Source: Octopus vulgaris (taxonomy: Eukaryota). From it: DNA of 64,000 nucleotides. The notes beneath the pieces were generated by a model, which was not told the origin of the DNA, did no database searches, and was given only the letters and a program-made list of their open reading frames with translations. Where the stretch lies: contig OX597816.1 in the NCBI GenBank assembly GCA_951406725.2, forward strand, positions 166,470,001-166,534,000, read 5' to 3'. This document shows positions 1,658-53,930 of this stretch, one piece after another (the first letter of the stretch is position 1; every line of letters starts with the position of its first letter). Both the position numbers and the translations under genes were made by a program.

Positions 1658-1808
1658 CGATGGGAAGGATGGCTTCCCTTTGCAAATACTGTTAGGGCAC
1701 AGAAAGTGTGTCAATAGCCAGCTGGAGAAGATGTTCTCCTGGGGCTCCAAGCTACAGTGGCTTCCACCCTTAGTGGTTAGCCACATTTAGGTGGCAAATG
1801 TACTTCAC
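1658..1808. repeat. Single arm of the 21582-21983 foldback family
   Basis: Near reverse complement of ~21582-21735. Confidence 0.8.
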
Positions 1809-1902
1809 AATATACTTAAGTGGCAAATATACTTCACAACCATAAAATTTAATCGCTTAGAGTTTTCCATAAAAACTCTCCATTACAAACTAACATACAC
1901 TC

Positions 1903-2383
1903 TTAACCTTTTTGATAGCAACGCAGCTGAAGCCGGCTCTGGCTCAGAGTACAAAAGTCTTGTTTTCATAAGTTTTGAATTAAAATCTTCCACCAAACCT
2001 TAGTCACAATTTATGTTCCTAACACTAGCTTAATGATAACTAAATTATTTTACTAAATTCTTTGTTATATTTAAAATTAATTGAAAGAAGCACAGAGAAT
2101 CTCAACAGAAATATGGTAACAAAAGGGTTAAAATATATAATAGCAAAACAATTCTTAACCCTTTGGCACCAACCTGGCAAAAATCACATCTGGCTCTGTA
2201 GTACAAATGTCTTGTTTGCATAAGTTTTGAATTAAAATCTTCCACCAAACCTTAGTCACAATTTATGTTCCTAACACTAGCTTAATGATACCTAAGTTAA
2301 TTTACTAAATTCTTTGTTATATTTAAAATTAATTGAAAGAAACACAGAACATCTCAAAATAAATACAGTAACAAAAGGGTTAA
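1903..2383. mobile_element. Two adjacent piggyBac-type MITEs (1903-2131, 2155-2383)
   Basis: TTAA-CC(C)TTT...AAAGGG-TTAA ends, ~225 bp each. Confidence 0.85.
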
Positions 2384-8179: not shown

Positions 8180-8184
<5 letters not shown>

Positions 8185-8460
8185 TGCAGCGTGGAAGGTG
8201 TTTGTAAGCCATTTAAGAAACACACAAAAGCCGTTCGATTCACTTCAACATTTAAGTTTAATTTGTCAAAATCTTTTCGTCGCTAAAATCCGCGACCTGT
8301 TCACTGACAAAAATCCGTGCTGCAGCTTAAATGTTGAAGTGAATCGAACGGCTTTTGTGTGTTTCTTAAATGGCTTACAAACACCTTCCACGCTGCAATT
8401 GTTTTCGTCTCAGCACACGATCTCAAATCAAATTACTTGCTATGCGAGTACATCTCTGTA
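8180..8460. mobile_element. Foldback element (77-bp perfect inverted arms plus tail), Penelope-like derivative
   Basis: Arms 8180-8256 and 8326-8402, hammerhead in the loop, ~58-bp unpaired tail, (TA)n on both sides. Confidence 0.75.
8262..8311 (-). ncRNA. Minimal type I hammerhead, G3-C8 swapped variant
   Basis: Minus strand: UUUGUCA-GUGAACA-G-GUCGC(GGAUUUUA)GCGAC-GAA-AAGAUU-U-UGACAAA. 7-bp stem I, 5-bp stem II. Confidence 0.68.
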
Positions 8461-9030: not shown

Positions 9031-9080
9031 TTTAAATCTCAGAATGAGATTGAAACAGTCCATGATAATGTAAAGTATAG

Positions 9081-9268
9081 AAGCCATCTTTCATGGCTAA
9101 CCACATAGGGGAGGGTGATACTGGGCTTTATAGCCCCAGAAGGCTGCACCAGCTGGCTTTAGACACCATACTTCAGGGGCACTGATATGGTGTCTAAAGC
9201 CAGCTGGATGCCTCTTCCTATAAAGCTACAGTACCACTCCCTGATGTGGTTAGCCATGATAGATGGCT

Positions 9269-9269
<1 letters not shown>
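9081..9269. repeat. Imperfect palindromic element related to the 21582-21983 arms
   Basis: AAGCCATC..GGCTAACCAC..CCAGCTGGCTTTAGACACCATA paired with TATGGTGTCTAAAGCCAGCTGG..GTGGTTAGCC..GATGGCTT. Confidence 0.75.
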
Positions 9270-9316
<47 letters not shown>

Positions 9317-14392: not shown

Positions 14393-14633
14393 AATTTCAT
14401 TATCATTATTTACATTCGACGGATATTTGTCCTCATCTTGTTTGTTGTTAACACAACGTTTCGGCTGATATACCCTCCAGCCTTCTTCAGGTGTCTTGGG
14501 GAAATTTCGAACCTGGGTATATCAGCCGAAACGTTGTGTTAACAAACAAGATTAGGACAAATATCCGTCGAATGTAAATAATGTACATAATTCCTCATCT
14601 CTTAAATATAGAACTGAATTTCATTATCATTAT
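14393..14633. mobile_element. Penelope-like non-autonomous insertion with inverted arms and 17-bp TSD
   Basis: AATTTCATTATCATTAT at 14393-14409 and 14617-14633; inverted repeat spanning 14404-14583; inserted in the tail of a CR1 fragment. Confidence 0.8.
14450..14495 (-). ncRNA. Minimal type I hammerhead ribozyme (Penelope type)
   Basis: Minus strand: GACAC-CUGAAGA-A-GGCUG(GAGGGUAUAU)CAGCC-GAA-ACGU-U-GUGUU. Confidence 0.78.
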
Positions 14634-21239: not shown

Positions 21240-21368
21240 AGTTCTAATTGATGAACTGGCCAAAGGGAGAGGATTGTTATCTTCCCAATATCAAGAATCT
21301 CAAGATGCCATTCAAAGGTTGTTAAACGAGCGACATGAATTACAGTCTCACCTCATGGAATCTTACAA
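21240..21368 (+). CDS. BLZF1: Golgin-45 coding exon 5 (VLIDELAKGR...DAIQRLLNERHELQSHLMESY)
   Basis: CCCATTAG acceptor, CAA|GTAAGT donor, phase 2-2. Resembles the recalled human VMADEL...AIQDLLSERE. Confidence 0.93.
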
Positions 21369-21581
21369 GTAAGTCAAAGAAACATTTATTAATTTCGATG
21401 TTTTAAACTGTAAAAGTCAAGTGGCTACATGGAATAAGTTGTTAGACTGCTATTATATCAGTCAAGGGTTCAAATTACTGGCAAATATTTCATTGTGCTT
21501 TTAAACAAACTTTTAATTAAAGTATTAAATTTGTGATAATAAATCTCTGAACAAGGTATAAACAGTAACTGCATGACAGTG

Positions 21582-21983
21582 TGAAGTATATTTGCCATCT
21601 AAATGTGCCTAACCACTAAGGGTGGATGTTACTGTAGCTTGTAGCCCCAGGAGAACATCTTCTCCAGCTGGCTATTGACACACTTTCTGTGCCCTATCGG
21701 TATTTGCAAAGGGAAGTCATCCTTCCTATCATCGACCTGACATGATACGCACGGACCCAGGTTTCTGGATATTTACCCATCATCAGCGCACGACAATCAC
21801 CGGTCTTCAATGCGAAGGGGTCCCAATGCAAATACATATATCCTTTTTCTAGTGACTTTTCGTCATACTGATAGGGCACAGAAAGCGTGTCAATAGCCAG
21901 CTGGAGATGTTCTCCTGGGGCTACAAGCTACAGTAACATCCACCCTTAATGGGTAGCCACATTTAGATGGCAAATATACTTCA
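21582..21983. mobile_element. Foldback element with ~120-bp inverted arms and central hammerhead
   Basis: TGAAGTATATTTGCCATCTAAATGTG... paired with ...CACATTTAGATGGCAAATATACTTCA. A single-arm relative lies at ~1658-1808. Confidence 0.85.
21748..21792 (-). ncRNA. Type I hammerhead ribozyme in the loop of a 402-bp foldback element
   Basis: Minus strand: CGUGCG-CUGAUGA-UGGG(UAAAUA)UCCA-GAA-ACCUGGGU-C-CGUGCG. Stem I has 6 bp with two G-U pairs; U10.1-A11.1; GUC triplet. Confidence 0.75.
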
Positions 21984-22145
21984 TATTAAATTTGTAATTT
22001 AAGCAGAACTAGAGAAAGCTAAATCATGGATAATCCTTTTGTGACCAACTTGCCAGAGACTACTTTTGATTTTTGGGTACAAGCTTCTTATTTTAACCCT
22101 TTAGCGTTCTGATTATTCTACCAAATCTAATACTTATTTATTCAC

Positions 22146-22310
22146 TGATACAGAAGCAATTTATTCTCAAACGCATGATAATGCTAATACAATTGCATGA
22201 ACAGGATAAACTATCCGTATATTGCAGAAAAATTTGTTAGCGGCCATGAGAATAAATTATTTCTGTATCTTTCAATACATCTCAATGTTTCTAAAGCAAA
22301 CTTTGTTTGT
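22146..22310 (+). mobile_element. Small inverted-repeat element with tail (copy 1)
   Basis: GATACAGAAGCAATTTATTCTCA paired with TGAGAATAAATTATTTCTGTATC, then TTTCAATACATCTCAATG.. tail. Second copy at 53748-53930. Confidence 0.7.
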
Positions 22311-25700: not shown

Positions 25701-28677
25701 TTTTTTGTTTTTTTATATATGTTTGTGTGTCTGTGTTTGTCCCCCCCCCCACCATCGATTGACAACCGATGTTGGTGTGTTTATATCCCCTGTAACTTTG
25801 CAGTTCAGCAAAAGAGTCCGATAGAGTAAGTACTAGGCTTACAAAGAATAAGTACTGGGGTCGATTTGCTCGACTAAAGGCGGTGCTCCAGCATGGCCGC
25901 AGTCAAATGACTGAAACAAGTAAGAGATAAAATGTATAGACACACACACACACACAATTGGGTTCTTTCAGTTTCTGCTTACTAAATCCATGCACATGGC
26001 TTTGATTGGCTTGGGACTATAATAAAAGGCACTTACCAAAGATTCCACACAGTAGAACTGAACCAAGGACCATGTGGTTAGGAAAGCAAACTTCTCAACC
26101 ACACAGCCACTCCTGTCACCCTACAACTTATATAATTGTAGGTTTGGTCCCATTGCATGATACATTGGTTAATTCACTGTTTAAATGTTACCTTAGTTAC
26201 AGTAACATGAGTTGCAGTCTCAAACCAAAAAAGGAACCACTATGCAATCGCTCAAACAGCTAGAAATAGCAGTCAAATAACTCTGAAATTACGCCTTGAA
26301 AGGACAAATTATATAATGTATAGTCTGAGATACTCCTGAAGAAAAAGTTGAAATGGTCATTGCTGGAACGTCTTTTGTTATAGGGCTGCTCAATCAGTTC
26401 TAACCTGGGGCTAAACAACAACCTGTATTGTCTTTTGATTTGATTTTTTAATTAAGAATGTTATTCAGAACCTAATTCATTCTCTAATATCTGAAAATTT
26501 GTCATGCTGTCTTTAAATGTTTGTTAATATTTCGTTGTCATCATCATCATCATCATCATTAGTAATCGTCATCAATGGTTTATGATTTTTTCGTACATTT
26601 AATGGGTTTGGTGAATGTGGTGGGGGTGGGGATTTTGCATTGGTTACACAATCAAGACTAATCATAAAGACATGGGAGACAACTCCGAAATTTCATTTAT
26701 TCCAGAGTTACTTCCCTTGCCTCAGAATTACTCATTAAACTAATGGTGTTTTTTTTCTATCCTTCTCAAGATGCAAATTTAAATTTCATTACTGACTACA
26801 TTAACTAGATTAGAACTCACTTTACTACTTATTTTCCATGCAGAAGGTATCCATGGGTATTCCGCCCCCACCCCGCAGTCATTTCTCCGTTTGTTTATGT
26901 TTTTTTTTAACATCTACTTTTCCCTGATAGCATGGGTTAGATATATTGTTGTGGCATTGTTTGCAGCTGGACGCCCTTCCTATCGCTAACCCTTACCTGT
27001 TTCTCAAGTTAGGAGTTTCTTATTCCACACATCTTCAAAAGTGCAAAGCCTAGAAGTGGTTTGTTGACAGGGGAAATGTCAACAACGTCACCACTTGTAG
27101 CTCAGCAATTTCAAAGGAATGTAAACGTAAACCAGTGATGCTCAATTATTAGGGGCCAGTTATTTTGCCCATGCACCCCTCCGATTCCTATTCTACTCAG
27201 GGGTATCCCCATAGCCATCCAATGTTTAGAAAATCCTATTATATTTTTAGAATTAAATATTAGAATTGAATATAGAAAATTAAAATGTTATAACCAATTT
27301 ATTGTGCATAGATTTTAACAACATAATCTTATAATTGACTCTCAAGGGTCTTGTGGACCCCACTTGAGAATCCCTGATGTAAACAGTCAAACAATAGGCA
27401 CATACACACATACATATATACATGCATGTATGATGTACATACACACACATGATGGGCTTCTTTCAGTTTCCATCTGCCAGATCCACTCATAAGACTTTGT
27501 TAGGCCCATTGCTATAGTAGAAGACACCAGCCCGAAGTTCCACAGAGTGGGACTGAACCCAGTACCTTGTGGCTGGGATGCAAACTTCTTACAATGCAGC
27601 TATGTCGGCACCTAGTGTAGTAATAAATTAAATTATATGTCCTTAGCTCCAAGAAACTTTTAAGGGCCAATTGTTGTTGTTTTGTCACAAGGCGCAGAAG
27701 TGTGACCAACCACATGGTTCTGGGTTCAGTCCCACTTTGTGGCACCTTGGGCAAGTGTCTTCTACTATAGCCTCGGGCCAACCAAAGCCTTGTGAGTGGA
27801 TTTGGTAGACGGAAACTGAAAGAAGCCCGTCGTATATATGTATGTGTGTGTATATTTTTGTGTGTCTGTGTTTGTCCCCCCAACATTGCGTGACAACCAA
27901 TGCTGGTGTGTTTACGTCCCCGTAACTTAGTGGTTCGGCAAAACAGACCAATAGAATAAGTACTAGGCTTACAAAGAATAAGTCCTGGGGTCGATTTGCT
28001 CGACTAAAGGTGGTGCTCCAGCATGGCCGCAGTCAAATGACTGAAACAAGTAAAAGAGTTAAAAAGAGAGAGTCAGCCCTGATCCTCACAAACAGTGGTA
28101 ATTTTGAGCCTTCACACATGTTGCTAGTCTCTAACTCATGATCACCATGACCTCTGACCCTTGCATAGCATGGTTAAGATTCCAAATTTGTTGATGTATT
28201 TGACTGATTTATTGATTTTTTTACTTTTAACCTTCAAAGGTCACTGTGTCAATTGTTTTGGCCATTATCTCTATTTCTAATTGACATCTAATCCATTAGA
28301 ATTGTTTTTCTCTTTCCGTCTCATTTCATCCCTCTCAGTTGTTCATTCACTGTCTGAGTATCATTTAATATAAAACTTCCTAAAACTTCTGTGGCAAGGC
28401 ATAAGTGTGGCTGTGTGGTAAGGAGCTTGTTCCCAATCACATGTTCTGGGTTTGGACCCTCTGCTTGTCACCATAGAGAGTGTCTTCTACTCTAACCTCA
28501 AGCCTACCGAAGGCTCATGGGTGGATTTAGTAGACAGAAACTGAAGGAAGCTTGTCGTGTATGTGTGTGTGTGTGCACACACGCATGCTATCACTGCTTG
28601 ACAACTGGTATTGGTGTGTTTATGTCACTGTAACTTAGCAGTTCATCAAAAGAGACTGCTAGAATAAGAACCAGGCT

Positions 28678-29158
28678 TTAACCCTTTTGTTACCATATTT
28701 CTGTTGAAATGCTCTGTGTTTCTTTCAATTACTTTAAATATAACAAAGAATTTAGTAAAATAACTTAGTTATCATTCAGCTAGTGTTAGGAACATAAAAT
28801 GTGACAAAGGTTTGGTGGAGGATTTTAATTCAGAACTTATGAAAACAAGACATTTGTACTACAGAGCCAGAGCTGGTTTCAGCCAGGTTGGTAACGAAAG
28901 GGTTAAGAATTGTTTCTCTCTTATATATTTTAACCCTTTTGTTACCCTATTTCTGTTGAGATGCTTTGTGTTTCTTTCAATTAATTTTAAATATAACAAA
29001 AAATTTAATAAAATAACTTAGTTATCATTAAGCTAGTGTTAGGATCATAAATTGTGACTAAGGTTAGGTGGAAGATTTTAATTCGAAACTTATGAAAACG
29101 AGACATTTGTACTCAGAGCCAGAGGTGGTTTTAGCCAGGTTGGTAACAAAAGGGTTAA
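28678..29158. mobile_element. Two adjacent piggyBac-type MITEs (28678-28906, 28930-29158)
   Basis: TTAACCCTTTTGTTACC...GGTAAC(G/A)AAAGGGTTAA. Same family as the 1903-2383 pair, opposite orientation. Confidence 0.88.
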
Positions 29159-32556: not shown

Positions 32557-32658
32557 AAGCCAATATAAAAATTTAACTATCTTGTGCCATGTTCCTGGTA
32601 TAGTGCTTTCCCCATACCAGGAACACAGCACGAGATGGTTAAATTTTTATATTAGCTT
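32557..32658. repeat. Hairpin with 45-bp arms and 12-nt loop
   Basis: Arms 32557-32601 and 32614-32658 with about five mismatches. Confidence 0.85.
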
Positions 32659-37049: not shown

Positions 37050-37483
37050 TAATATTTAGCAGAAGCAACAGAGTGACCTAAGAACTGAGAGCTTTACACA
37101 TTAACACTTATCAAACTAGATACAGATTGAGAGCTTATGAAATTATGTACCAGTGATAATAGCATTTCGCTGGATAGTTCTGGAACAAATTATAAAAGCA
37201 ATTAGAATATCAGGTGGATAATTCATATTTCAAATAGTATGCCAATTACGCTGTTCAGTAACTAAATACATAAATAAATATTTACTTATTGAGCAGCATT
37301 TGAAATATGAATTATCCACCTGACATTCTAATTGTTTTTATGATTTGTTCCAGAACTATCCTAGGAAATACTATTACCACTGGTATATAACTTCACAAAC
37401 CCTCAATCTGTGTCTAATTTGATAAATGCTGATGCATAAACCTCTCAGTTCTTGAGTCATTCTGTTGCTTCTGCTAAATATTA
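37050..37483. repeat. Long imperfect palindrome (~185-bp arms)
   Basis: TAATATTTAGCAGAAGCAACAGA... paired with ...TCTGTTGCTTCTGCTAAATATTA; begins ~10 bp after a (TA)n tract. Confidence 0.9.
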
Positions 37484-48209: not shown

Positions 48210-48851
48210 TCACATCTTGTTTAAAATCCATTTTATCTGATCTAAAATCCATTTTATCTTGTCTAAAATAAATTTCATCTTGTCTGAAATAAATTTCATC
48301 TTTTCTAAAATTTATTTATTTTTTTTTGTCTAAAAAAATATTTTATCTGATTTAAAATCTACCTTAGCTTGTTCTAAATGCCATCGTATCTTGTTTAAAA
48401 TCCATCATATCTTGTTTGAAATCAATCTCACATTCTCTTAAATCGACTTCATCTCATTTAAATTTCATGTTTGTTGAAAATCCATCTCATAGTCTCTTAA
48501 ATCCCTCTTAACCCTTTCGTTACCAACCTGACTGAAACCGGCTCTGGCTCTGAGTATAACTGTTTTGTTTTCATAAGTTTTGAATTAAAATCTTCCACCA
48601 AACCTTAGTCACAATTTATACTCCTAACACTAGCTTAATGGTAACTAAGTTATTTTACTAAATTCTTTGTTGTATTTAAAGTAATTGAAAGAAACACAGA
48701 GCATCTCAAAAGAAATACAGTAACGAAAGGGTTAAGATCCATCATATCTTGTTTGAAATCAATCTCACATTCTCTTAAATCAACTTCATTGCATTTAAAT
48801 TTCCTCTCTGTTGAAAATCCATCTGACAATCTGTTAAATCCGTCTTAAATC
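48210..48851. repeat. Degenerate ~20-bp minisatellite (TTGTTTAAAATCCATTTTATC-like) before the last exon
   Basis: Repeated units, interrupted by the MITE at 48508-48735. Confidence 0.75.
48508..48735. mobile_element. piggyBac-type MITE
   Basis: TTAACCCTTTCGTTAC...GTAACGAAAGGGTTAA. Confidence 0.9.
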
Positions 48852-51973: not shown

Positions 51974-52454
51974 GTAACCCTTTCGTTACCAACCCGGCTG
52001 AAACTGGCTCTGGCTCTGAGTACAAATGTCTTGTTTTCACAAGTTTTGAATTAAAATCTTCCACCAAACCTTAGTCATAATCTATGTTCTTAAAACTAGC
52101 TGAATGATAGCTAAGTTATTTTACTAAATTTTTTGTTATATTTAAAGTAATTGAAAGAAATACAGAGCATCTCAAAATAAATACAGTAACGAAAGGGTTA
52201 AACAGTGATTAACTCTTTTGTTACCATATTTCTATTGAAACACATTACCGCTGTTTTAAGTAATTTAGAAAATAATGAAAAATTTAGTAAAATATCCATC
52301 ATATTAATTTGCAGTCTGAAACAAAAATTATAAAATTTTGAGGGTAAGATTTAAATGTAAATCACATTAAGACAAAAAGTTTATATCATAAAACTTAGAG
52401 CAGTTTCAAAAAGTTTAAAATGAACTTTTGAAAGTAACTTCCAGAAAGAGTTAA
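51974..52454. mobile_element. Two adjacent piggyBac-type MITEs (51974-52201, 52209-52454)
   Basis: Same terminal repeats; the second copy is more diverged and in opposite orientation. Confidence 0.8.
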
Positions 52455-53747
52455 GTATACGTTTGTCTTAAATATTAGTGAGTTATGTATACAAAAAGAT
52501 TGTCTTCCTTGAAAAGAATCCATGTCCTGTTTTGTAGAGGGCATGGCTTGCTGGTGCTAATAACCAAGTAACATAACTCTTCTGTTCCTGTTAGGTTTCC
52601 TGTCCCATGAAAAAAAAAGAAAAAATTCTTTTAAACTTTTACATAACATGCAAAGATAAAAATGGTTGTGAGAGTAAAAGTGCTACACTACGAACCACAT
52701 GAACCCAAGTGCAACCCCTACTTCAATCTTTTCACTGTTTCCTTATATAAAATATCAATTCTACCTGCTCTAGACTACACTAAAAATAAATACGGATCCC
52801 ATTTATTCCTTTAGGCATGTAGCTGTAAATACAACTGATGTAATAATATTATAAATGTTTCAACTAGGCGAAAATCTTTTAAGCACAAACTTGAGACAGA
52901 AAAGAACAAAAGGTCCACTGACAAAATATTCATCCTCATCATCATCATTTAATGTCCGTTTTCTGTGTTGATATGGGTTGGACAGTTTGACAAGAGCTGG
53001 AGAGTTGTGGCAGGCTCCAGTTGTCTGTTTTGGCATGGTTTCTATGGCTGGATGCTCCTCCTGGTGCCGGACACTTTACAGAGTGTACTGTGTGCTTTTT
53101 ATATGAAACCAGCGCCAGTGGGGTTGTTAAGTAATTTATTGCGAGAAGGAGGGGAATTGAGGGAAGTGGTTGTGTTCCAGGCAAGGGGTTAGAGTATGAT
53201 AGAGGGACAGGAATAGTTGTCTTACTATAAATGTGATACTTGGCCATCCCGGTAGAACAAAGAATAAGGAAGGTGCAAGAGAGAGAGGAACCATATATTG
53301 GGTGGGCGAGTTAACCTTATTATCAATCAACTGATAGTGTGTCTGCTGTTATTAGCTCTTAAATTAAGTTCTGTGAATCAAATTTTAGTGTTATTTTCTG
53401 TCTCAGATTACTGCTTAAAATGTCTAATTTTGCACCAGCATTTTGACAGTCATAATTAGGCAAACCATTCCACAAATGTTAACTAAGAAATCCATCATCA
53501 TAATTGTTTTAAGATCATTGTTACCACATTTGTAGGGGTCAAACAAGATTTCCTGTCTTGGTGCTCACCCTGTGGCCAATCATCATCTGTTTCCAAGCAA
53601 GGTAGTATTTTTTCTAGACTAGATATATTTTTTACAGAAGTCTACTAACAAACAGCATCATATTTGTATAAATGGTGGCTTTGTGTGCATTCAGTATGCA
53701 GCGTCATGACAGAAATACACACACACACACACACCCACACATATATA

Positions 53748-53930
53748 CTGATAAGGAAATAATTTATTCTCAAGTGCAGAATAATGCTAACAGGATAAAC
53801 TATCGATATTTTGCAGAAAAATTTGCCGATCCTGTTCCTGCTATTAGCATTATTCTGTATTTGAGAATATATTATTTCCTTATCTGTATCTTTCAATACA
53901 TCTCAATGATTCTAAAGCAAACTTTGTTTA
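53748..53930 (+). mobile_element. Small inverted-repeat element with tail (copy 2), between CA/TA repeats
   Basis: Same arms, AACAGGATAAACTATC core and tail as 22146-22310. Confidence 0.7.

What the first reader, a model, noticed from the sequence alone, without database searches (positions are those of the whole stretch)
21582..21983. 402-bp 'MITE' that hides a GUC hammerhead between ~120-bp arms
Seen: long inverted arms enclose a CpG-rich loop holding a CUGAUGA/GAAA/GUC ribozyme with a U10.1-A11.1 variant. A transcript would be a long dsRNA rod capped by a self-cleaving domain. It sits ~210 bp downstream of coding exon 5.
Basis: partly seen in the sequence, partly recalled or inferred. Interest (0 to 1): 0.75.

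Follow-up and report, generated by a model that had tools for sequence, protein, structure and literature searches.

The report
Octopus retrozyme with Penelope insertion footprint
This is not a DNA transposon (MITE) but an old, decaying copy of a 357-base repeat that carries a predicted self-cutting hammerhead RNA and was likely pasted into a gene's intron, backwards, by the enzymes of Penelope-like jumping genes, a known kind of element whose insertion ends here give likely clues to how such RNAs are copied.

Summary
The arms and the hammerhead are real, and the predicted cut site is right. The MITE reading is wrong. The insertion is 21536-21983, between 12-bp target duplications. It is one 5'-truncated copy of a ~357-nt, ORF-less, head-to-tail monomer (minus strand), plus an inverted partial copy of its own 3' part. 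Family copies end at two fixed sites 44 nt apart; only 10 of 29 have such an inverted arm, and its length varies. This is the published footprint of Penelope-like elements (PLEs). Two sister families (73% and 60% identical) keep the fold and the hammerhead through compensatory changes. U10.1-A11.1 is likely CpG decay: 81 of 100 copies have C·A. The ribozyme strand is antisense to the host gene (golgin-45, intron 5), so the host pre-mRNA would form the hairpin without the ribozyme. Verdict: new member of the animal non-LTR retrozymes, likely mobilised by PLE enzymes. Cleavage, circular RNA and the helper PLE are not shown. The scan noted similar fold-backs in another genome (e1-8829949).

The parts
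21523..21534 (+). Left target-site duplication, 12 bp (TATTAAATTTGT)
   Evidence: Identical to 21984-21995
21536..21865 (-). Main copy: 5'-truncated retrozyme monomer (about positions 30-354 of the ~357-nt unit)
   Evidence: Mapped on a natural monomer, L018:1479-1832; nhmmer E 2e-112
21536..21581 (-).
   Evidence: Family ends cluster at monomer positions 310-315 and 353-354
21582..21703 (-). Left 'arm' = monomer positions ~195-310 of the main copy
21742..21800 (-). Type I hammerhead: core CUGAUGA 21786-21780, GAAA 21765-21762, predicted cut between 21754 and 21753
21755..21762 (-). Self-complementary stem III (ACCUGGGU; most copies have the perfect palindrome ACCCGGGU), the likely dimerisation site
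   Evidence: predicted duplex -9.8 versus -14.9 kcal/mol
21865..21983 (+). Right 'arm' = inverted, 5'-truncated second copy (monomer ~195-310), ending at the short 3' site
21984..21995 (+). Right target-site duplication, 12 bp
21240..21368 (+). Host gene golgin-45, coding exon 5 (AG...GT); the insertion lies in the next intron, 167 bp downstream, ribozyme antisense
1659..1839 (+). Second, 5'-truncated copy of the same family (no hammerhead), ending at the short 3' site, with a ~28-nt repeat of its end
9033..9274 (-). Fold-back stump of sister family 2 (tail plus inverted copy, no hammerhead left), inside (TA)n

Best explanation
The locus is one decayed insertion of a ~357-nt, ORF-less repeat with a type I hammerhead (a non-LTR retrozyme) that was likely copied into AT-rich DNA by the reverse transcriptase and GIY-YIG endonuclease of a Penelope-like element, the 'arms' likely being a by-product of that reaction. 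Shown from sequence: closed head-to-tail monomer; two fixed 3' ends 44 nt apart; scattered 5' truncation; optional inverted copy that nearly always ends at the other 3' site; 12-bp target duplication here; hammerhead and overall fold kept across three families; antisense position in golgin-45 intron 5. Inferred: (1) a source locus is transcribed and the hammerhead, likely as a dimer through the palindromic stem III, cuts out monomers that may circularise; (2) a PLE protein binds the 3' stem-loop region, nicks both target strands about 12 nt apart and primes cDNA at two internal sites, one per strand, which gives a long-ended main copy and a short-ended inverted copy; (3) the template is a circle or an uncut multimer, because copies read through both the cut site and the monomer junction; (4) this copy has since decayed neutrally, with CpG changes turning C10.1 to U and weakening the palindrome. 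It is likely inert as a ribozyme in vivo, although its arms would form a ~120-bp hairpin in the host pre-mRNA.
For: Monomer and junction: 40 scored loci span the 354-to-1 junction; 57 loci mapped; no shared sequence beyond the monomer in an all-against-all of 30 loci. Ends: in 29 loci chosen by a mid-3' probe, 36 of 44 segment ends lie at 310-315 or 353-354; 10 of 29 carry an inverted copy ending at a fixed site, and 9 of these 10 pair a short end with a long end (344-354). In 28 loci chosen by the hammerhead pattern, 4 have a 5' inversion and 13 sit beside (AT)n or (ATT)n (no background control). Clean 10-15-bp duplications occur at several copies (L001, L002, L007, L018, L026, L030, L032, L059). 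These features are those listed for PLE insertions in PMC8557442 (passages) and tied to two RT start sites in PMC11167929 (parts 1-2). RT + GIY-YIG elements are abundant in the genome (150 of 6136 candidates scored; 781-aa ORF) and show two 3' ends and inversions too. Ribozyme under selection in the source elements: C3-G8 changes to U3-A8, stems I and II change in step, and stem III holds three different palindromes. On 17 sequences 89.5% of cells pair against 22-56% in slid controls (two families only, so few independent events). Circular fold z -4.2 to -6.3 for 5 of 5 monomers. 5' ends are not piled at the cut site: 1 of 39 (family 1) and 1 of 42 (family 3) lie within 5 nt.
Against: No autonomous partner found: BLAST and nhmmer of the monomer against 42 GIY-YIG loci hit only separate retrozyme insertions, and tail similarity to two PLE families is not significant (p 0.19-0.94). 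No long tandem arrays were seen: among the 100 listed hammerhead matches only one close direct pair, unlike the dimers to 62-mers of coral retrozymes (PMC7229834). The hammerhead fold lies 7-11 kcal/mol above the predicted minimum in all five copies tested. The opposite strand also folds well (z -3.3 to -4.1). The missing pile-up at the cut site fits an uncleaved template as well as a circle; in the Anolis PLE, cleavage was not needed for insertion. Loci were the best-scoring 40 of thousands of candidates per search, not random samples.
Confidence: 0.85

Rival explanations
1. The copies are merely 5'-truncated stumps (pseudo-LTR ends) of an autonomous PLE whose coding part was not sampled; there is no independent retrozyme.
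For: The same tail, inversion and target bias would be seen; autonomous PLEs are abundant. An earlier scan note read similar fold-backs in another genome this way.
Against: Upstream of the hammerhead, copies run into the previous monomer after ~107 nt, not into an ORF. The unit length and fold are kept in three families at 60-73% identity. No match to the ends of the PLE families sampled.
Confidence: 0.08
2. A MITE (DNA transposon) with ~120-bp terminal inverted repeats that captured a hammerhead.
For: This copy looks like one: long arms. The best hits of the first search are similar fold-backs of 437-467 bp.
Against: Those hits were selected by the fold-back query. Arms are absent from 24 of 28 pattern-chosen and about two thirds of 29 probe-chosen loci; inversion points differ in every copy; the ends are offset by a 44-nt tail that lies inside the duplication; head-to-tail partial tandems are common.
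Confidence: 0.03
3. This copy has been co-opted: its hairpin or an antisense ribozyme transcript regulates golgin-45 (for example as an A-to-I editing or splicing signal).
For: It lies 167 bp from exon 5; the core is intact; the plus-strand RNA would fold a long rod. Contigs of three organism labels run from the unique flank 30 nt into the tail, which suggests a shared old insertion.
Against: The arms differ by 4.2%, about as much as the flanks differ between labels (up to 17 in 529), as neutral decay would give. Five transitions lie in the hammerhead region. Thousands of copies make intronic hits expected. The contigs fall just short of the tool's 31-letter bridging rule.
Confidence: 0.04

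Closest known systems
Metazoan non-LTR retrozymes (coral, mussel ~350-390 bp, axolotl 330/350 bp; Cervera & de la Pena 2020, PMC7229834; seen: passages and parts 2-3 of 6)
   Same: ORF-less 150-450-nt unit, GC under 50% (45-46%), canonical type I hammerhead with short stem III and palindromic loop, highly self-paired predicted circle, long target duplications. A mismatch at the base of helix II has a precedent (axolotl Amex2, U·U, still cleaves).
   Different: Dispersed 5'-truncated monomers and partial tandems rather than long arrays; C10.1·A11.1 in family 1; expression and circularity not shown; the passages seen contain no octopus or cephalopod example (0 occurrences).
Insertions of endonuclease-bearing Penelope-like elements, and non-autonomous Chlamys elements (Craig et al. 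2021, PMC8557442, passages; Frangieh et al. 2024, PMC11167929, parts 1-2 of 4)
   Same: 5' truncation, partial tandems, inverted 5'-truncated copy, tail at one end only, microsatellite targets, hammerhead in the terminal repeat.
   Different: No ORF; tail of 44 nt (published 30-40); canonical rather than minimal hammerhead; no sequence link to an autonomous family found.
Animal retrozymes as non-autonomous PLE derivatives (Li, Clavereau & Pollet, bioRxiv 10.64898/2026.07.22.740005; seen: parts 1-3 of 5, no supplements)
   Same: Same conclusion, that retrozymes borrow PLE enzymes.
   Different: That preprint rests on co-occurrence and pLTR homology, mostly in vertebrates, and leaves the mechanism open. 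Here the evidence is the insertion footprint itself, and pLTR homology was not found.
PLE minimal hammerheads (Cervera & de la Pena 2014, PMC4209133; seen: part 1 of 4)
   Same: Palindromic stem III for dimer cleavage; U3-A8 core covariation (families 2 and 3); opposite-strand pairs 100-700 bp apart were noted there.
   Different: Family 1 has the canonical helix sizes (I 6 bp, II 4 bp) and a C3-G8 core.

Membership tests
MITE | Fixed terminal inverted repeats at both ends of most copies | tested here: not met
   4 of 28 and 10 of 29 loci have an inverted arm, of variable length and offset by a tail
MITE | Short duplication of fixed length, typical of a transposase family (recalled) | tested here: not met
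   12 bp here; 10-15 bp where clean, often hidden in microsatellites
Type I hammerhead | Conserved core C3-A9, G12-A14, A15.1-U16.1, H17 | tested here: met
   no Rfam match at gathering score
Type I hammerhead | Three helices supported by compensatory change | tested here: met
   family 1 has a C·A at 10.1-11.1 and family 2 a C·A in stem I
Type I hammerhead | Self-cleavage at the predicted site | not testable with these tools
   Only contigs were on offer
Non-LTR retrozyme | 150-450-nt non-coding unit with a type I hammerhead, GC under 50% | tested here: met
   354-360 nt, GC 0.45-0.46
Non-LTR retrozyme | Tandem repeats with two or more hammerheads | tested here: inconclusive
   Four family-1 loci carry two hammerhead positions in tandem (L038, L054, L056, L058), and L189 of family 3 has 2.6 units; no long array seen. 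This copy is a monomer.
Non-LTR retrozyme | Highly self-paired circular fold | tested here: met
   Prediction only: z -4.2 to -6.3, same shape in three families
Non-LTR retrozyme | Expressed as linear and circular monomer RNA | not testable with these tools
PLE-type insertion | 5' truncation, partial tandems, inverted 5' copy, tail at one end | tested here: met
   against PMC8557442
PLE-type insertion | AT-rich or microsatellite target bias | tested here: inconclusive
   13 of 28 and 31 of 57 loci beside (AT)n or (ATT)n; no background rate computed
Autonomous PLE | RT + GIY-YIG ORF in the unit, or homology to an autonomous pLTR | tested here: not met
   only 42 GIY-YIG loci of about ten families sampled

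The most novel reading that the evidence does not exclude
Octopus carries a superfamily of ~360-nt retrozymes (three families, the youngest 95-97% identical) whose circular RNAs are the direct templates of PLE reverse transcriptase: priming at two fixed internal sites and reading round the circle through the ligated cut site explains tails, inverted arms and copies longer than one unit without long source arrays. That would be footprint evidence for the open question of how animal retrozymes transpose. The stem III palindromes (CCCGGG, CUAG, CAUG) would act as family-specific pairing codes, and family 3 shares its U3-A8 core and CAUG loop with the active 781-aa PLE, so it could pair with its helper's RNA.
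Probability: 0.35. Interest if true: 0.62.

Novelty: new member of a known kind. Interest (0 to 1): 0.36.

Why it matters
The single locus is likely a dead intronic copy. The family matters modestly. How animal retrozymes are retrotransposed is stated as open in a 2026 preprint. These families carry the tail and inversion footprint that was tied biochemically to PLE priming, in a genome with an apparently intact PLE protein and a young retrozyme family, so the question becomes testable in vitro. It also warns that PLE-made fold-backs are easily annotated as MITEs. I found no paper on octopus hammerhead retrozymes (searches; listings only, except the papers named); the library lacks most subscription journals and Repbase or Dfam were not searched, so the family may be catalogued.

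Tried and rejected
Rfam scan: no match. Search for the autonomous partner: a family copy 1.3 kb from a PLE in L095 proved to be a separate insertion; an apparent likeness between the tails of family 1 and the 781-aa PLE was not significant (p 0.19). Pile-up of 5' ends at the cut site: absent. Empty site: no joint skipping the element among those shown in three large runs (18 joints not shown; contigs break in repeats). Expression: no RNA holder listed; the one guessed-RNA run laid (X3) covers the repeats but not exon 5, which is uninformative; splicing across the intron was not checked with reads, so the exon map rests on tblastn and splice signals. Depth ratios suggest thousands of copies but are not copy numbers; first-look candidates were 4569. 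One search used a structure string misplaced by one column and was redone. Idea that ADAR editing of A11.1 repairs the C·A pair: G at 11.1 occurs in only 1 of 100 copies, so no support. A literature search for 10.1-11.1 mismatches returned nothing relevant. Pfam did not name the host exons. Duplicated loci were dropped before counts: L161, L164, L031, L041, L044; L227, L234, L249.

Full report
Observation. The inverted arms are real: 21582-21703 pairs with 21865-21983, with 5 substitutions and one 3-nt indel, and the stretch folds far below its shuffles (z -28). A relaxed descriptor finds it and one other motif in the window and nothing in 20 shuffles. Rfam does not detect it. The exon upstream is coding exon 5 of 7 of a golgin-45 gene on the plus strand; exon 4 is 100% identical to an Octopus bimaculoides protein. 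I infer an octopus genome from this.

The real boundaries. A search of the genome with the region gave 4569 first-look candidates, 40 scored. Most matches begin at window position 21536, not 21582, and the 12-bp duplication TATTAAATTTGT flanks 21536-21983. Many copies continue head-to-tail through a 22-nt linker into the start of the unit, which defines a closed monomer of 354-359 nt. No shared sequence beyond it was seen in 30 loci compared all against all. Mapped on this monomer, the window copy is a 5'-truncated unit ending at position 354, preceded by an inverted piece from about 195 to 310.

The footprint. Among 29 loci fetched with a probe that does not touch either end, 36 of 44 segment ends fall at 310-315 or 353-354. 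Ten loci have an inverted copy ending at one of these sites, and nine of the ten pair a short end with a long one. Among 28 loci fetched by the hammerhead pattern, 4 have a 5' inversion and 13 lie beside microsatellites. Inversion and truncation points differ from copy to copy. Craig et al. (PMC8557442, passages) list these features for Penelope-like elements: 5' truncation, partial tandems, an inverted 5'-truncated copy and a 30-40-bp tail at one end. Frangieh et al. (PMC11167929, parts 1-2) showed that the tail is the stretch between two internal RT start sites and that both target strands are cut and extended. A MITE would have fixed terminal repeats, so that reading fails. Autonomous RT + GIY-YIG elements are abundant here and show two 3' ends and inversions as well. 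None of 42 sampled loci shares sequence with the monomer, so the helper is not identified.

The ribozyme. A 33-letter pattern matches 104 places and its reversed control none. Of the 100 listed, 81 have C10.1·A11.1, 18 U-A and 1 C-G. The CpG in stem III shows T in 17 of 100, so the U10.1 of this copy is best read as CpG decay (my counts; 23 of 30 have C). Most copies have the perfect stem III palindrome ACCCGGGU, the dimer signature described in PMC4209133 (part 1). A diverged fold-back at window 9033-9274 led to family 2 (73% identical), and a profile search led to family 3 (60% identical, copies 95-97% alike). All three have 357-360-nt monomers, two 3' ends, inversions and the same predicted circular fold, with the hammerhead at the tip of a long stem. 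Their hammerheads differ in step: C3-G8 against U3-A8; stem II CGGG/CCCA, GGGA/UCCC, AGGG/CCCU; stem III loops CCCGGG, CUAG, CAUG; U at position 1.7 in all. On 17 sequences of families 1 and 2, 89.5% of cells pair, against 22-56% for slid partners; relatedness makes this a few events, not many. The ribozyme was therefore under selection in the source elements. Cleavage is untested. The active fold is 7-11 kcal/mol above the predicted minimum. Published retrozymes range from fast monomer cleavage to weak cleavage that needs dimers, including one with a mismatch at the base of helix II (PMC7229834); 8 of 9 Xenopus dimers did not cleave (preprint).

Template. 5' ends do not pile up at the cut site (1 of 39 and 1 of 42 within 5 nt), and copies run through both the cut site and the monomer junction, up to 2.6 units. 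The template was therefore not a linear RNA cut at the hammerhead. It was a circle or an uncut multimer. No long array appeared among the listed matches, which favours a circle only weakly, since a few tandem source loci exist.

This copy. It sits 167 bp into intron 5, with the ribozyme antisense to the host. The pre-mRNA would fold a ~120-bp hairpin but cannot self-cleave. Contigs from three organism labels run from the unique flank 30 nt into the tail, with flanks differing by up to 3%; this suggests an old shared insertion but falls just short of the tool's bridging rule. The 4.2% difference between the arms fits neutral decay over that time. No RNA evidence could be obtained.

Comparison and verdict. 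It works like, and meets the testable sequence criteria of, an animal non-LTR retrozyme; arrays are inconclusive and circular RNA is untested. It is not an autonomous PLE and not a MITE. That retrozymes depend on PLEs is proposed in print, and non-autonomous PLEs with head-to-tail insertions are known from Chlamydomonas. I did not find the tail-and-inversion footprint reported for a retrozyme, nor any octopus retrozyme (listings, plus the passages named); supplements of these papers were not read and may list such cases. An earlier scan note on another genome reached the same PLE-footprint reading but called the pieces PLE stumps; I wrote my reading before seeing it. New member of a known kind, interest 0.36.

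Noticed in passing
L094:1631-1990 (G000:C13 ~22648630-22648990) and loci L177-L201, L232-L261: Family 3: young 360-nt retrozyme family (95-97% identity, 2881 first-look candidates) with a fully paired hammerhead (U3-A8 core, CAUG loop); the best candidate for present activity.
   Followed up: partly
L091:1745-4087, L092 and many identical GIY-YIG hits: Apparently intact, recently spread PLE with a 781-codon RT + GIY-YIG frame, a second upstream frame of 359 codons, and a minimal hammerhead (U3-A8, CAUG palindrome) near its 3' end.
   Followed up: partly
L095:1821-4983 and L101: A second autonomous PLE family with a 766-bp perfect 5' inverted copy and a hammerhead-like motif with a GUAC loop.
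   Followed up: partly
Family 1 monomer positions ~28-45 (alignment A1, columns 28-44): The loop of the 5' hairpin reads GAAAA in some copies and its reverse complement TTTTC in others, a small inversion that splits the family into two subtypes.
   Followed up: no
window 14490, minus strand: A second hammerhead-like motif (CUGAAGA ... GAAA CG UU) passes the relaxed scan; it lies in a fold-back at 14404-14583.
   Followed up: no
window 37050-37483, 8180-8402, 53745-53889, 52117-52294, 32557-32658: Further fold-back repeats of other families; possibly more PLE-type insertions.
   Followed up: no
window 1901-2383, 28677-29158: A ~230-bp unit in head-to-tail pairs, with single copies at 48506-48735 and 51975-52202.
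   Followed up: no
window 22136-22280: Small inverted repeat (34-nt arms, 82%) just right of the insertion, repetitive in the sequencing runs.
   Followed up: no
window 5880-49040, plus strand: Golgin-45 gene, seven coding exons, with a 24-kb last intron.
   Followed up: partly
L243/L208; L244 and L245: A few copies end shortly after the monomer junction (positions 31, 54) instead of at the fixed sites; L244 and L245 have identical flanks 6 kb apart, likely a segmental duplication.
   Followed up: no
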